Origin: Gammaproteobacteria bacterium
GTDB taxonomy: Bacteria; Pseudomonadota; Gammaproteobacteria; SZUA-140
Reading direction: 5' to 3'
Assembly (NCBI GenBank): GCA_046754065.1
Contig: JBHHVB010000002.1
Span: 33,837-97,836 of the forward strand
Length of the DNA: 64,000 bases
Shown here: positions 2 to 4,932 of the stretch, in pieces
Position numbering within the stretch: the first letter of the stretch is position 1
Layout: each line of letters begins with the position of its first letter
The notes under the pieces: model-generated
Told to the model about the DNA's origin: nothing
What the model saw: only the letters and a program-made list of their open reading frames with translations
The model's database searches: none
Position numbers and translations under genes: made by a program

Positions 2-226
2 AATGTTTGTGAATCGGTAGTCCGGCGCCGTTACCCTGAGGTGGGGATGGCGATCGACTGGTTATCAGCGTTTGCGCCAACGAGAATGAGTGGTACCGGC
101 GCAAGTGTATTTGCGCCATTTGCTGAAAAGCATCAGGCAGACGCAGTAATTGAGCAGTTGCCACCAAACTGGCGTGGTTTCGTAGTGAAGGGCCTAAGTG
201 AATCACCATTGATTAATCATCAATGA
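2..226 (+). CDS. ispE: 4-diphosphocytidyl-2-C-methyl-D-erythritol kinase, C-terminal fragment (gene starts upstream of window)
   Basis: Frame is open from the window edge to the stop at 224-226. Translation ...TRMSGTGASVFAPF...NWRGFVVKGL..SPL matches the conserved GHMP-kinase C-terminus of IspE. The ispE-tRNAGln-prs order is conserved in Pseudomonas-like gammaproteobacteria. Confidence 0.75.
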   Translation, partial: NVCESVVRRRYPEVGMAIDWLSAFAPTRMSGTGASVFAPFAEKHQADAVIEQLPPNWRGFVVKGLSESPLINHQ

Positions 227-261: not shown

Positions 262-336
262 TGGGGTGTCGCCAAGCGGTAAGGCACAGGGTTTTGATCC
301 CTGCATTCCCAGGTTCGAATCCTGGCACCCCAGCCA
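262..336 (+). tRNA. tRNA-Gln (anticodon TTG)
   Basis: 75 nt with a 7-bp acceptor stem tggggtg/cacccca. Anticodon loop is ggTTTTGATcc, T-loop is GGTTCGAAT, and it ends G-CCA at 334-336. Confidence 0.93.
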
Positions 337-364
337 AAAAAGCCGAAGGCATATATATTAAGAC

Positions 365-489
365 TGGGGTGCCAGGATGAGAACCTCAAGGTTCGACCGG
401 CGAGCGAAGCGAGTCGGAACGTTGGCGAGGAGCGCCAACGGCCCCGAAGGGGTGAGGCCAGGGGCCGAATAGGACTGGCACCCCAGCCA
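365..489 (+). repeat. tRNA-Gln-derived pseudo-tRNA / partial duplicate carrying a GC-rich hairpin insert (att-like scar or small structured element)
   Basis: The 5' end tggggtgcc (365-373) and 3' end ctggcaccccagcca (475-489) copy the acceptor and T-stem ends of the tRNA-Gln 30 bp upstream and can form a 9-bp stem. About 100 nt of GC-rich sequence lies between them, including a perfect hairpin cgttggcg-agga-cgccaacg (420-440) and the T-loop-like GGTTCGA at 390-396. It lacks D and anticodon arms. Confidence 0.5.
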
Positions 490-614
490 AATTAATGATT
501 CGTATCAGGCAAGTAACCCATCTATAAATTAGACAGGACTTTCAATTGAATTATTCCAGAGCGACCAGGCAAGTGAGGAATGAAGCACAGCAGTATTCTG
601 GTGCCGACAACCGT

Positions 615-1553
615 ATGATGGTGTTTAGTGGTAACGCACATCCCCGACTGGCTCAATCGATTGTCAGTTGCCTGAATCTGCCGCTTGGTAAGGCCAATGT
701 CGGGCATTTTAGCGACGGAGAGAGTGCGGTAGAAATCATGGAAAATGTGCGCGGAAAGGATGTATTTATCGTGCAGCCTACCTGTGCGCCAACGAATGAT
801 AATCTAATGGAATTACTGGTAATGATCGATGCAATTCGACGCTCTTCTGCCAGTAGAATAACCGCAGTTATCCCGTATTTTGGCTACGCTCGCCAGGACC
901 GCAGACCCCGTTCTGCGCGTGTACCTATCAGTGCCAAGGTCGTGGCAGACATGCTGGTCAGTGTCGGTACTGATCGAGTATTGACCGTTGATCTGCATGC
1001 TGACCAGATTCAGGGGTTCTTTGATATCCCGGTTGATAACGTCTATTCATCGCCGGTATTGCTAAGCCATATCTGGCGGGAAAAGTATCCGGGGATGATG
1101 GTGGTTTCACCGGATGTAGGAGGTGTGGTTCGTGCACGGGCGATGGCGAAGCGCCTCGATGGGGCGGATCTGGCCATTGTCGATAAAAGACGTCCCGGGC
1201 CGAATGAGGCAAAGGTGATGAACATTATTGGTGACGTAGAAGATCGCTCCTGCATTCTTCTCGATGACATGGTCGATACGGCGGGTACGTTATGTGAAGC
1301 GGCGCGAGTGCTAAAAGAGCGTGGAGCCTCGCTCGTTGCGGCCTATTGTACCCATCCGGTATTGTCGGGCACTGCTGTGAACAAGCTCTCAAAATCGGTG
1401 CTGGACAAACTGGTAGTCAGCGACACGATTCCGCTGACAGAAGAAGCCCAGGCGTGCGGGCGTATTCATCAGCTTAGTGTGGCGGGTATGCTTGCCGAGA
1501 CCATGCGACGAATCAATATGGAAGAATCAGTGAGTTCGATGTATATCGACTAA
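615..1553 (+). CDS. prs: ribose-phosphate pyrophosphokinase (PRPP synthetase)
   Basis: [14 protein letters not shown]... N-terminus aligns with Prs. The PRPP-binding loop DDMVDTAGT is present. I started it at ATG 615 rather than the ORF-track 546 on the basis of homolog N-termini. Confidence 0.9.
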
Positions 1554-4195: not shown

Positions 4196-4317
4196 TCCGC
4201 GATGAGCTAGATGAGGGGCGAAACCGGATTAATCTTCAAAGTTAGCTTGACGTGAGTGTGCGGAAAATAGAAAATTCACGTTCCCGCGTATTCGCAGTTA
4301 CGTCTTTTGATCAAAAT

Positions 4318-4394
4318 GGCTATGTAGCTCAGTTGGTTAGAGCACAGCATTCATAATGCTGGGGTCGGTGGTTCAAGTCCACCCATAGCCACCA
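4318..4394 (+). tRNA. tRNA-Met (elongator, anticodon CAT)
   Basis: 77 nt with acceptor stem ggctatg/catagcc. Anticodon loop is cattCATaatg, T-loop GGTTCAAGTCC, and it ends CCA. It resembles E. coli metT. Confidence 0.93.
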
Positions 4395-4932
4395 ACCTTC
4401 CACGATTAAAGTCGAGCGTTCAGGTTTTCCGGTTATAGATGGACCACCGAGGCCTATTTGATACGGGGGTCGGGGTTGATTCGCGCCATCCCTCCAAAAT
4501 TTGATCAGTGCGATCAGGCACCCCGGTAAGAGATGACCTAACGATGCTTGATCGCCATACGTCAATATATTGACAGTGCCCTTGGGTTTTCTACGGTTGG
4601 TTATCTGAAGAAAACTTGTGTGAATGCGATGTGAGTCAGGGCCGCTAGCCTAAGTACCAGTCATTACTAATATAAACGCGTTTTCGTTTAACTGGTATTG
4701 CCCGTTTTATTCAATCTCCCAATGGTGAAAAAGCATTTTTTTAGGCACAGGTTTTGCTGTTCGATCATATATGGTTCGCCGGCTGCATGACGATTCCACC
4801 GAATATAAAAATTATTGTCATACGCTAAAGCTTTAACCGTTCGGGCCGAAATGAATGTTACGGAAGTGATATTGGCGAGACTCTTGGATCTTTTAGAGGG
4901 AAATTTAAAAAAATTTAATAGGAACTAATCTG

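What the first reader, a model, noticed from the sequence alone, without database searches (positions are those of the whole stretch)
262..489. tRNA-Gln followed by a tRNA-derived pseudo-tRNA carrying a GC-rich hairpin insert
Thirty nucleotides after a normal tRNA-Gln(TTG) lies a 125-nt element. Its two ends reproduce the acceptor/T-stem 5' strand (tggggtgcc) and the 3' end (ctggcaccccagcca) of the tRNA. The interior is about 100 nt of very GC-rich, strongly structured sequence, including a perfect 8-bp hairpin cgttggcg-agga-cgccaacg and a T-loop-like GGTTCGA. The flanking DNA is AT-rich. A duplicated tRNA 3' end is the classic footprint of integrase-mediated insertion at a tRNA gene. No cargo remains, so it could be a scar of an excised island. 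Alternatively it could be a tRNA-like small RNA or MITE-like element that landed in a tRNA copy.
Basis: seen in the sequence. Interest (0 to 1): 0.5.

Follow-up and report, generated by a model that had tools for sequence, protein, structure and literature searches.

The report
RtT-type tRNA-linked RNA element
The 125-nt "pseudo-tRNA" after tRNA-Gln is a divergent, single-copy member of the known RtT family of structured elements that sit behind tRNA genes and copy the tRNA's 3' end, so it is an ordinary member of a known family whose function is still unknown.

Summary
A tRNA-Gln(UUG) lies at 262-336, and a 125-nt GC-rich element lies at 365-489. The element's 3' 17 nt exactly repeat the tRNA's 3' end, and its 5' 12 nt are the perfect complement of that end.

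It is neither an integrase scar nor a decayed tRNA. It matches Rfam RtT RNA (RF00391) over the full model, but below the curated threshold (39.7 bits against 45; E 2e-6). A model I built from E. coli-type copies scores it at 56.5 bits (E 2e-12).

The same core follows tRNA-Tyr, Gln, Lys, Arg and Ser genes in many genomes and metagenomes. In each case the ends match the local tRNA. Covariation supports a closing helix and four of the five modelled hairpins. The tpr-like ORF is not conserved.

Homologous copies, often tandem, lie at the same ispE-tRNA-Gln-prs locus in other gammaproteobacteria. Eight closer relatives of this MAG lack the element.

Most likely it is transcribed with the tRNA and released by tRNA-processing enzymes as a stable RtT-like small RNA. 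That step is inferred, and the function is unknown.

Verdict: new member of a known kind, low to moderate interest.

The parts
262..336 (+). tRNA-Gln(UUG), the host gene. Its last 15 nt plus 2 downstream nt are repeated at the element's 3' end.
   Evidence: ARAGORN; Rfam tRNA 62.8 bits; direct repeat D1.
337..364 (+). 28-nt A/T-rich spacer with a mini-hairpin GCC-GAA-GGC (342-350). C364 can pair with the discriminator G486.
   Evidence: Sequence; inverted repeat I3 at 364-375 / 475-486.
365..375 (+). P1 5' strand, TGGGGTGCCAG. This equals the acceptor 5' strand plus the T-stem 5' strand of the tRNA-Gln.
   Evidence: MFE fold; 12/12 match to the expected complement; inverted repeat I3.
376..396 (+). 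Conserved 5' module GATGAGAACCTCAAGGTTCGA, holding hairpin H1 (GAACC 381-385 / GGUUC 390-394) flanked by potential tandem G.A pairs. It is nearly invariant in sequence across the family.
   Evidence: Alignments A1/A3/A4. H1 shows no covariation and near-invariant sequence.
397..417 (+). Hairpin H2, CCGGC-GA-GC[GAA]GC-GA-GUCGG: tandem G.A pairs and a GNA triloop.
   Evidence: Fold; alignment to model R1; covariation in the outer pairs and conserved G.A.
420..440 (+). Hairpin H3, CGTTGGCG / CGCCAACG (8 bp, loop AGGAG).
   Evidence: Fold. All 6 modelled pairs show double-sided changes across the family.
441..453 (+). Hairpin H4, GCCCC[GAA]GGGGU.
   Evidence: Fold; conserved CCC-GNA-GGG.
456..466 (+). 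Hairpin H5, GGCC[AGG]GGCC.
   Evidence: Fold; covariation in 4-5 of 5 pairs.
467..474 (+). Junction GAATAGGA (family consensus CGAATAATCC). Here AATC has become AGGA, replacing two Watson-Crick pairs at the inner end of P1 with potential G.A/A.G pairs.
475..489 (+). P1 3' strand plus tail, CTGGCACCCCA-G-CCA. This is an exact copy of the tRNA-Gln 3' end including the discriminator and CCA.
   Evidence: Direct repeat D1, 100% over 17 nt.
546..1553 (+). prs (ribose-phosphate pyrophosphokinase), the downstream gene. No terminator-like site was found between the element and prs.
   Evidence: (Pfam domains).
2..226 (+). 3' end of ispE (GHMP kinase), the upstream gene.
   Evidence: tblastn to the loci upstream of tRNA-Gln; Pfam GHMP_kinases in relatives.

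Best explanation
The element at 365-489 is a divergent, single-copy member of the RtT family of tRNA-linked structured RNA elements. The prototype is the 178-bp repeats and rttR small RNA downstream of E. coli tyrT/tyrV. Here the element is attached to the tRNA-Gln(UUG) gene between ispE and prs in an uncultured gammaproteobacterium.

Anatomy (shown). A conserved core of about 100 nt carries five hairpins (H1-H5). H2 holds conserved G.A/A.G juxtapositions, and H2 and H4 carry GNA triloops. The core is closed by a helix whose 3' strand is a copy of the host tRNA's 3' end (T-stem 3' strand, acceptor 3' strand, discriminator, CCA). The 5' strand of that helix is the complement.

Mechanism (inferred from the E. 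coli and Pasteurellaceae precedents, not tested here). The element is transcribed on the same RNA as the tRNA. Its tRNA-like 3' end is recognised and trimmed by the enzymes that mature tRNA 3' ends. The GC-rich multi-hairpin body then survives as a stable small RNA.

In this copy the closing helix covers the whole acceptor stem (11-12 bp followed by (G)CCA), so the RNA is an acceptor/T-stem minihelix mimic. RNase P could therefore also cut at its 5' side (speculative).

What the RNA does afterwards is unknown. The only proposal in the literature is modulation of the response to amino-acid starvation.

The matching ends are best explained by concerted evolution with the adjacent tRNA gene: gene conversion or unequal crossing-over for the 3' copy, and compensatory or template-switch changes for the 5' arm. 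They do not look like site-specific integration.
For: Family identity
- Rfam RF00391 RtT matches 356-489 over model positions 1-130, at 39.7 bits and E 2.3e-6.
- The core blocks GATGAGAACCT, AAGGTTCGA, CGAGCGAAGCGAG, GAACGTTG..CAACGGCCC(C)GAAGGG and CGAATA are shared with the four E. coli K-12 copies around tyrT/tyrV, where rttR is annotated as an ncRNA.
- My model R1, built from 10 tRNA-Tyr-type, one tRNA-Lys-type and one tRNA-Gln(CUG)-type copy, scores the window element at 56.5 bits, E 1.8e-12, full length.

Link to the tRNA
- Core-pattern matches lie downstream of tRNA-Tyr (108), Gln-UUG (7+32), Gln-CUG (4+4), Lys (1+5), Arg (3+3) and Ser (1). These are counts of pattern matches from the genome scan plus the metagenome scan.
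- The element's 3' 16 nt match the local tRNA with 0-1 mismatch in most intact copies.

Structure
- In 143 distinct sequences, 87.4% of cells are paired, with 282 double-sided changes against 80 in shuffles (0/500) and 17-43 in slid controls.
- The result repeats on 41 distinct non-Tyr copies: 141 against 35.
- The closing helix changes with tRNA identity.

Other points
- Non-coding: the tpr-frame ORF stops after 5 codons in 50 of 95 unique copies.
- Same locus: all Gln-UUG-linked genome copies lie between ispE and prs. Several of them pass Rfam's own RtT threshold at 53-87 bits.
- Expression precedent: RtT-family RNAs next to tRNA-Asn and tRNA-Lys were seen on Northern blots in Actinobacillus (PMC4986893). 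The E. coli rtT RNA is described as a processing product of the tyrT transcript.
Against: - The Rfam score is below the curated gathering threshold (39.7 against 45).
- There are no expression data for this organism.
- No promoter-like or terminator-like site was found in 1-700, so the transcription unit is inferred only from orientation and proximity.
- G.U against A.C asymmetry does not clearly favour selection on the sense transcript: 141 against 125 overall. P1, H3 and H5 favour it, while H2 and H4 do not. Selection on a DNA hairpin is therefore not excluded.
- Eight closer relatives (Prs 81-84% identical) keep ispE-tRNA-Gln-prs without the element, so it is dispensable.
- As one RNA, the tRNA plus element is predicted to prefer a partner-swapped fold. 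That would hinder tRNA maturation rather than help it.
Confidence: 0.8

Rival explanations
1. It is a mobile or selfish DNA element that colonises tRNA genes. On this view the RtT core is a small non-autonomous element that inserts at, or recombines through, the near-universal T-loop sequence (GGTTCGA...ATCC). It picks up its ends from the target tRNA and then amplifies in tandem. Any RNA it produces is a by-product.
For: - The same core sits behind at least five tRNA isotypes and in distant taxa (Gammaproteobacteria, Kiritimatiellales). A reduced form occurs in DPANN-type archaeal contigs.
- Presence is patchy. The window is the only element-bearing member of its Prs clade among nine distinct sequences, and there is no trace in relatives.
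- Tandem arrays of 2-5 copies occur.
- The core is 67% GC between flanks of about 40% GC.
- The core is framed by AAGGTTCGA and (A)ATCC, the two halves of a T arm. The first 22-26 nt read as the reverse complement of the tRNA's T arm and acceptor 3' strand, with 20/26 identities in the window and in E. coli.
Against: - No transposase, integrase or reverse transcriptase is associated with the ispE-tRNA-Gln-prs loci.
- There is no second copy in the 64-kb window.
- Every confirmed full-length copy (model R1 hit) follows and is co-oriented with a tRNA gene, or follows an upstream copy in an array.
- Gln-linked copies occupy the same locus across a wide clade, which fits vertical descent with loss.
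- Strong structural covariation implies selection on the fold, not only on the ends.
- Element-bearing loci were found by the pattern search itself, so their apparent clustering in the Prs tree is biased.
Confidence: 0.15
2. It is a footprint of integrase-mediated integration at the tRNA gene. The duplicated tRNA 3' end would be attL/attR, and the interior would be what remains of an excised or decayed island.
For: - A perfect 17-nt direct repeat of the tRNA 3' end is present.
- From general knowledge, tRNA T-loop to 3'-end segments are classic att sites.
Against: - Only 136 nt lie between the repeats, with no integrase remnant. The only ORF is a 31-codon frame that is not conserved in the family.
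- The interior is a conserved, covarying structure shared with elements behind other tRNAs, so it is not random island debris.
- The 5' arm is an inverted copy of the same tRNA end, which att duplication does not produce.
- Tandem arrays elsewhere repeat the whole unit.
Confidence: 0.02
3. It is a decaying duplicate of tRNA-Gln (a pseudogene) that happened to acquire a GC-rich insert. It would be neutral and functionless.
For: - Both ends derive from the tRNA.
- tRNA finders do not call it.
- Close relatives lack it.
Against: - The interior is homologous to RtT elements in E. coli and about 200 other loci, and it keeps all family helices.
- A neutral pseudogene would not keep a perfect 12-bp closing helix together with five hairpins that covary family-wide.
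Confidence: 0.02
4. It encodes a small arginine-rich Tpr-like peptide: ATG at 377, 31 codons, MRTSRFDRRAKRVGTLARSANGPEGVRPGAE.
For: - E. coli annotates tpr (29 aa) in the same frame of one RtT repeat.
- The window copy has an open 31-codon frame that starts at the conserved ATG.
Against: - Across 95 unique copies, 50 stop after 5 codons.
- Ten copies have ACG, TAG or CTG in the start position.
- ORF lengths scatter from 0 to more than 50 codons.
- Indels in the hairpins do not respect the reading frame.
Confidence: 0.01

Closest known systems
RtT RNA (Rfam RF00391): the rttR small RNA and the 178-bp repeats distal to tyrT/tyrV in E. coli
   Same: - Position directly downstream of, and co-oriented with, a tRNA gene.
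- A 3' end that repeats the tRNA's 3' terminus including CCA.
- The same core motifs and hairpins, and a GC-rich body of about 120-130 nt.
   Different: - The host is tRNA-Gln(UUG), not tRNA-Tyr, so both termini differ in sequence.
- H1 is 5 nt shorter and H2 is longer.
- It is a single copy, not 3-4 tandem copies.
- The closing helix covers the whole acceptor stem (11-12 bp), against 8 bp in E. coli that leave CACCACCA unpaired.
- It scores below Rfam's gathering threshold.
tRNA-Gln-linked RtT copies at ispE-tRNA-Gln-prs in other gammaproteobacteria (Ectothiorhodospiraceae MAGs, Sedimenticola, environmental contigs such as L018, L033, L084, L088, L136, L138, L191)
   Same: Same locus, same host tRNA and same architecture. 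The closest are L033 and L195, at about 78-80% identity over 122 nt, and they share the extended H2.
   Different: - These copies are often in tandem arrays of 2-4.
- Their 5' arm usually pairs with only 8-10 nt of the tRNA-derived 3' end.
- Their hosts belong to Prs clades other than the window's.
Pasteurellaceae RtT-family small RNAs: Actinobacillus Arrc20/Arrc21 and Aggregatibacter AaHKsRNA22 (RF02902)
   Same: - Non-Tyr tRNA-associated RtT relatives that are detected as RNAs (PMC4986893).
- The window element gives a weak match to RF02902 over the H3-H4 region, at 23 bits.
   Different: - Different host tRNAs (Asn, Lys).
- The paper describes them as lying upstream of those tRNA genes.
- I did not compare the sequences directly.
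att-site duplications left by integrative elements at tRNA genes
   Same: A direct repeat of the tRNA 3' segment.
   Different: - No integrase or cargo is present.
- There is an additional inverted copy of the tRNA end.
- The interior is conserved and structured.
- Other loci carry tandem arrays.
tRNA acceptor/T-arm minihelices and the tRNA-like domain of tmRNA (general knowledge)
   Same: A continuous helix built from acceptor and T-stem sequences, ending in N-CCA.
   Different: - The T loop is replaced by a five-hairpin domain of about 99 nt.
- There is no D-arm analogue.
- There is no significant match to tmRNA models: only a chance-level partial hit to permuted tmRNA at 16.7 bits, E 0.22.

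Membership tests
RtT RNA (RF00391) | Significant full-length match to the family covariance model | tested here: inconclusive
   RF00391 gives 39.7 bits, E 2.3e-6, model positions 1-130, which is below the gathering score of 45. The independent model R1, built from E. coli-type copies, gives 56.5 bits and E 1.8e-12. Sister copies at the same locus in other taxa pass the gathering score at 53-87 bits.
RtT RNA (RF00391) | Lies immediately downstream of, and co-oriented with, a tRNA gene | tested here: met
   It lies 28 nt after tRNA-Gln(UUG), on the same strand.
RtT RNA (RF00391) | The 3' end repeats the last ~17-19 nt of the upstream tRNA, including CCA | tested here: met
   A 17-nt perfect direct repeat at 322-338 and 475-491. 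The same rule holds at Tyr, Gln, Lys and Arg loci.
RtT RNA (RF00391) | Conserved core: 5' module GATGAGAACCT..AAGGTTCGA, the GAGCG-N-AGCGAG hairpin, a variable stem, CCC-GNA-GGG, a distal hairpin and CGAATA | tested here: met
   All blocks are present and align. The helices are supported by covariation family-wide.
RtT RNA (RF00391) | Tandem repetition of the unit (3.14 copies in E. coli) | tested here: not met
   The window holds a single copy. Single copies also occur in other members, so I treat this as typical rather than defining.
RtT RNA (RF00391) | Released from the tRNA transcript as a discrete stable RNA | not testable with these tools
   No transcript data exist for this MAG. The precedents come only from E. 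coli and Actinobacillus.
Functional tRNA (second tRNA-Gln) | Cloverleaf with D arm, anticodon arm and T loop | tested here: not met
   ARAGORN and the Rfam tRNA model find nothing at 365-489. Only the acceptor and T-stem strands are present.
Integrative-element att scar at a tRNA gene | Direct repeat of the tRNA 3' segment flanking integrase-bearing or decayed cargo | tested here: not met
   The repeat is present. However, the interior is the conserved RtT core, with no integrase remnant.
MITE / REP-like dispersed repeat | Many dispersed copies at unrelated sites, with element-specific terminal inverted repeats | tested here: not met
   There is one copy in 64 kb. All confirmed full-length copies (model R1 hits) follow a tRNA gene or an upstream array copy, and the ends are host-tRNA-specific. 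The rest of the genome was not available.

The most novel reading that the evidence does not exclude
RtT-type elements may be a single, very widespread class of tRNA-gene 'hitch-hikers'. On this reading they move between tRNA genes, and even between bacteria and DPANN archaea, by recombining through the universal T-arm sequence, and they rebuild both ends from whichever tRNA they land behind. The fully paired version in this window (complete acceptor stem plus CCA) would then be a working tRNA-acceptor mimic that engages RNase P, the CCA-adding enzyme or uncharged-tRNA sensors. That would give a concrete handle on the function of RtT RNA, which has been unexplained for 30 years.
Probability: 0.12. 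Interest if true: 0.65.

Novelty: new member of a known kind. Interest (0 to 1): 0.3.

Why it matters
For this window, the result is mainly an annotation fix. The "pseudo-tRNA" should be labelled as an RtT-like element that standard Rfam thresholds miss.

More broadly, the comparison shows three things:
- RtT is not specific to tyrT. The same core follows Tyr, Gln, Lys, Arg and Ser tRNA genes.
- Both of its termini track the host tRNA.
- Its fold is under selection, while its reported ORF (tpr) is not.

RtT RNA has had no established function since 1991. A catalogue of host-matched variants, including ones with a complete acceptor-stem mimic like this one, would help in designing processing and binding experiments.

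Tried and rejected
- BLASTN of the element against E. coli genomes found nothing. The similarity is visible only to covariance models and by eye.
- A look-up of the exact Prs protein returned only a 1.4-kb Logan contig that starts inside the element, and a look-up of the 312-aa form found nothing. The organism stays 'Gammaproteobacteria bacterium MAG'.
- The tpr-like coding hypothesis is rejected.
- A G.U against A.C strand-asymmetry test, meant to prove RNA-level selection, was inconclusive.
- Extension of the closing helix to the acceptor end is not a family trait. The outer four positions pair at near-chance rates (0.22-0.56). Only the window and L176 pair fully, and L033/L195 pair at 3 of 4.
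- The 5' module GAUGA-[stem]-GA recalls a hammerhead core, but the essential positions differ and no ribozyme family matched in Rfam. Dropped.
- The Rfam hits to tmRNA_permuted, miRNA and snoRNA models in 200-620 are chance-level matches.
- Simple promoter and terminator scans of 1-700 found nothing.
- About 25 metagenome pattern hits, and roughly 30 genome hits, were noise. These were an IS3 transposase coding sequence and assorted coding sequences.
- Bosl & Kersten 1991 (PMC329039) is not held in the library. What I say about it rests on citing papers and on general knowledge.

Full report
**1. The observation**

ARAGORN and the Rfam tRNA model both call a tRNA-Gln(UUG) at 262-336. After a 28-nt spacer comes a 125-nt segment (365-489). 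It is 67% GC, in a window of about 50% GC whose intergenic flanks are about 40% GC.

The repeat finder reports three relevant repeats:
- A perfect 17-nt direct repeat, CTGGCACCCCAGCCAAA (322-338 and 475-491). This is the tRNA's 3' end, including the discriminator, CCA and two more bases.
- A perfect 12-nt inverted repeat between the two ends of the element (364-375 and 475-486).
- A 23-nt, 91% complementary inverted repeat between the tRNA's T arm and acceptor 3' strand (311-333) and the element's first 23 nt (364-386).

The element folds at -67.5 kcal/mol (z = -5.6) into an 11-bp closing helix and five hairpins.

**2. What it is**

A permissive Rfam scan of 200-620 gave a full-length match to RF00391, RtT RNA. 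The score was 39.7 bits with E 2.3e-6, below the gathering score of 45.

I fetched the E. coli K-12 tyrT-tyrV region. There rttR is annotated as a small RNA, and four RtT copies score 133-137 bits. Side by side, the window element shares these blocks with the E. coli copies:
- GATGAGAACCT
- AAGGTTCGA
- CGAGCGAAGCGAG
- GAACGTTG..CAACGGCCC(C)GAAGGG
- CGAATA

The termini differ. In E. coli they are GGGGAAGG / CCTTCCCCCACCACCA, the tRNA-Tyr 3' end. In the window they are the tRNA-Gln 3' end and its complement.

**3. The family at large**

One core pattern that ignores the termini was scanned over one genome per species. Counting matches by nearest upstream tRNA gave Tyr-GUA 108, Gln-UUG 7, Gln-CUG 4, Arg-UCU 2, Arg-CCU 1 and Lys-UUU 1. 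The rest were chance matches in coding sequence.

A second scan, restricted so as to exclude the enterobacterial Tyr type, was run over metagenome contigs. It added Gln-UUG 32, Gln-CUG 4, Lys 5, Arg 3, Ser 1 and non-enteric Tyr 2. It also returned AT-rich variants on DPANN-type archaeal contigs.

In most intact copies, the 16 nt before CCA are identical or one base different from the local tRNA's 3' end. Arrays of 2-5 units occur.

Several Gln- and Lys-linked copies pass Rfam's own RtT threshold at 53-91 bits. The window copy is therefore a divergent, sub-threshold member of a family that Rfam already recognises at such loci.

The literature held in the library agrees. RtT-family RNAs next to tRNA-Asn and tRNA-Lys genes were detected on Northern blots in Actinobacillus pleuropneumoniae. 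The E. coli RNA is described as a by-product of tyrT transcript processing with a possible role in the stringent response (PMC4986893).

**4. Structure**

I built a covariance model, R1, from 12 copies: 10 Tyr-linked, one Lys-linked and one Gln(CUG)-linked. The structure was hand-read as P1 plus H1-H5.

R1 finds exactly one convincing hit in the 64-kb window, at 365-489 (56.5 bits, E 1.8e-12). It aligns every helix.

On 143 distinct copies from genomes:
- 87.4% of cells are paired, against 81.6% in shuffles.
- There are 282 double-sided changes, against 80 in shuffles (0 of 500 shuffles reach the observed value) and 17-43 when partners are slid.

On 41 distinct non-Tyr copies the result repeats, with 141 against 35 in shuffles and 7-24 when slid.

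Covariation is seen in P1 (which tracks tRNA identity), H2, H3 (6 of 6 pairs), H4 and H5. H1 is invariant in sequence. G.A/A.G juxtapositions are conserved in H2 and common in H5. These alignments were fitted to the model, which favours the structure. However, RNAalifold on an independent MAFFT alignment also recovered P1 and H3 with compensatory changes.

A test for excess of G.U over A.C, which would indicate selection on the sense RNA, was not decisive.

**5. Not coding**

E. coli annotates a 29-aa 'protamine-like' ORF (tpr) inside one repeat, and the window copy has an open 31-codon frame from the equivalent ATG (377). Across 95 unique copies, however, 50 stop after five codons and 10 lack a start codon.

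**6. Locus and distribution**

The window comes from an uncultured gammaproteobacterial MAG. The gene order is (lolB)-ispE-tRNA-Gln-prs-rplY-pth-ychF.

All Gln-UUG-linked copies from genomes lie between ispE and prs. Their hosts have Prs 69-80% identical to the window's.

Eight distinct closer relatives (Prs 81-84% identical) have ispE-tRNA-Gln-prs with no trace of the element, even with filters off. In a Prs neighbour-joining tree, the window is the only element-bearing member of its clade.

Its nearest element relatives are L033 and L195, at about 78-80% identity, sharing an extended H2. This pattern fits either several losses or a regain. The tree rests on one protein, and the element-bearing loci were ascertained by the pattern, so I leave this open.

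**7. What is unusual about this copy**

In most members the 5' arm pairs with the T-stem strand plus 3-5 nt of the acceptor strand. The outermost four positions pair at near-chance rates. Only the window and one Gln-CUG-linked copy (L176) pair perfectly to the end of the acceptor.

The window RNA would therefore be a true acceptor/T-stem minihelix with a (G)CCA tail, capped by the five-hairpin domain.

The first 22-26 nt of the element also read as the reverse complement of the tRNA's T arm and acceptor 3' strand, with 20/26 identities here and in E. coli. AAGGTTCGA...(A)ATCC frames the rest. The whole element thus looks like a fold-back copy of the tRNA's 3' third, with the hairpin domain sitting in the T-loop position. 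This is inference from sequence.

As a single RNA, the tRNA plus element is predicted to prefer a partner-swapped fold.

**8. Mechanism**

Shown:
- Family identity.
- Linkage to, and co-orientation with, tRNA genes.
- Host-matched termini.
- A selected secondary structure.
- No conserved ORF.

Inferred from precedents:
- Co-transcription with the tRNA.
- Release by the tRNA 3'-end machinery at the duplicated end.
- Persistence as a stable small RNA.

Speculative:
- RNase P cleavage at the 5' side of this fully paired copy.
- Any acceptor-mimic function.

No promoter-like or terminator-like site was found in 1-700. The element may therefore lie on a transcript that continues into prs.

**9. Rivals**

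- A tRNA-targeting selfish element. This is the best alternative for the element's origin. Patchiness, arrays, many host tRNAs and foreign-looking GC content support it. The absence of any associated enzyme gene, the strict linkage to tRNA genes and the selected fold argue against it.
- An integrase scar.
- A neutral pseudogene.
- A small protein.

The last three are each contradicted by the data above.

**10. Verdict**

This is a divergent new member of a known family (RtT). It is ordinary as a genome feature, and mildly interesting for its complete acceptor mimic and for what the comparison shows about host-matched termini.

Noticed in passing
L079 2269-2367 (-); L142 ~540-660; L187 ~4290-4420; also L147, L155, L159, L168, L192: Contigs of DPANN/Nanoarchaeota type carry an AT-rich element after a tRNA-Gln-like gene. 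It keeps only the 5' module GATGAGAACCTGAAGGTTCGACGAGCG and ends in a copy of the tRNA 3' end, with no CCA encoded. It falls below the threshold of my RtT model, so homology of the whole element is unproven.
   Followed up: partly
window 262-489: Folded as one RNA, the tRNA and the element swap partners. The tRNA's 3' half pairs with the element's first 22 nt, and the tRNA's 5' acceptor strand pairs with the element's 3' end (MFE -111.8 kcal/mol). The element could therefore compete with tRNA-Gln folding before processing.
   Followed up: partly
L085 7199-7224 (+); L024 2208-2233; L125 14-39; L097 3672-3698: These are truncated copies. The 5' arm and 5' module are intact, but unrelated sequence follows. 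One is at an ispE-tRNA-Gln-prs locus in an Ectothiorhodospiraceae MAG, and another lies behind a tRNA-Arg(CCU) in an Oleiphilaceae MAG. They show that the element decays in place.
   Followed up: no
L034 6228-6351 (Vagococcus sp.); L044 282-404 (Paenibacillus camelliae, 426-bp contig); L088 (contig binned as 'Halobacteria archaeon'): Enterobacterial-type RtT copies (127-128 bits) sit on contigs labelled as Firmicutes. A gammaproteobacterial ispE-tRNA-Gln-RtT-prs locus sits on a contig binned as a haloarchaeon. These are probably contamination or misbinning in the public assemblies.
   Followed up: no
L135, L140, L143, L144, L146, L151 and about 20 more metagenome loci: The core search pattern also matches, by chance, a conserved stretch of an IS3-family transposase gene (..YDEENLKVRS..ERKK..).
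   Followed up: yes
L001 (Logan SRR29324590) against window ~462-520: The only other assembly carrying this exact prs gene starts its contig inside the element, at about window position 462. This suggests an assembly break within the GC-rich structured segment.
   Followed up: no
L059 3403-3541; L170 3408-3545: In Budvicia and a related metagenome contig, the tRNA-Lys-linked RtT arrays lie about 1 kb from a CpoB/ybgF thermometer RNA (RF02782, 108-120 bits). This places them in the tol-pal/ybgF-tRNA-Lys region.
   Followed up: no
window 342-350 and hairpin loops at 406-408 and 446-448: G-C-closed hairpins with GNA triloops recur. GCC-GAA-GGC is in the spacer, and GC-GAA-GC and CCCC-GAA-GGGG are in the element. 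Across the family the loop is GAA, GCA, GTA or GGA. From general knowledge, such loops are unusually stable in both RNA and single-stranded DNA.
   Followed up: no
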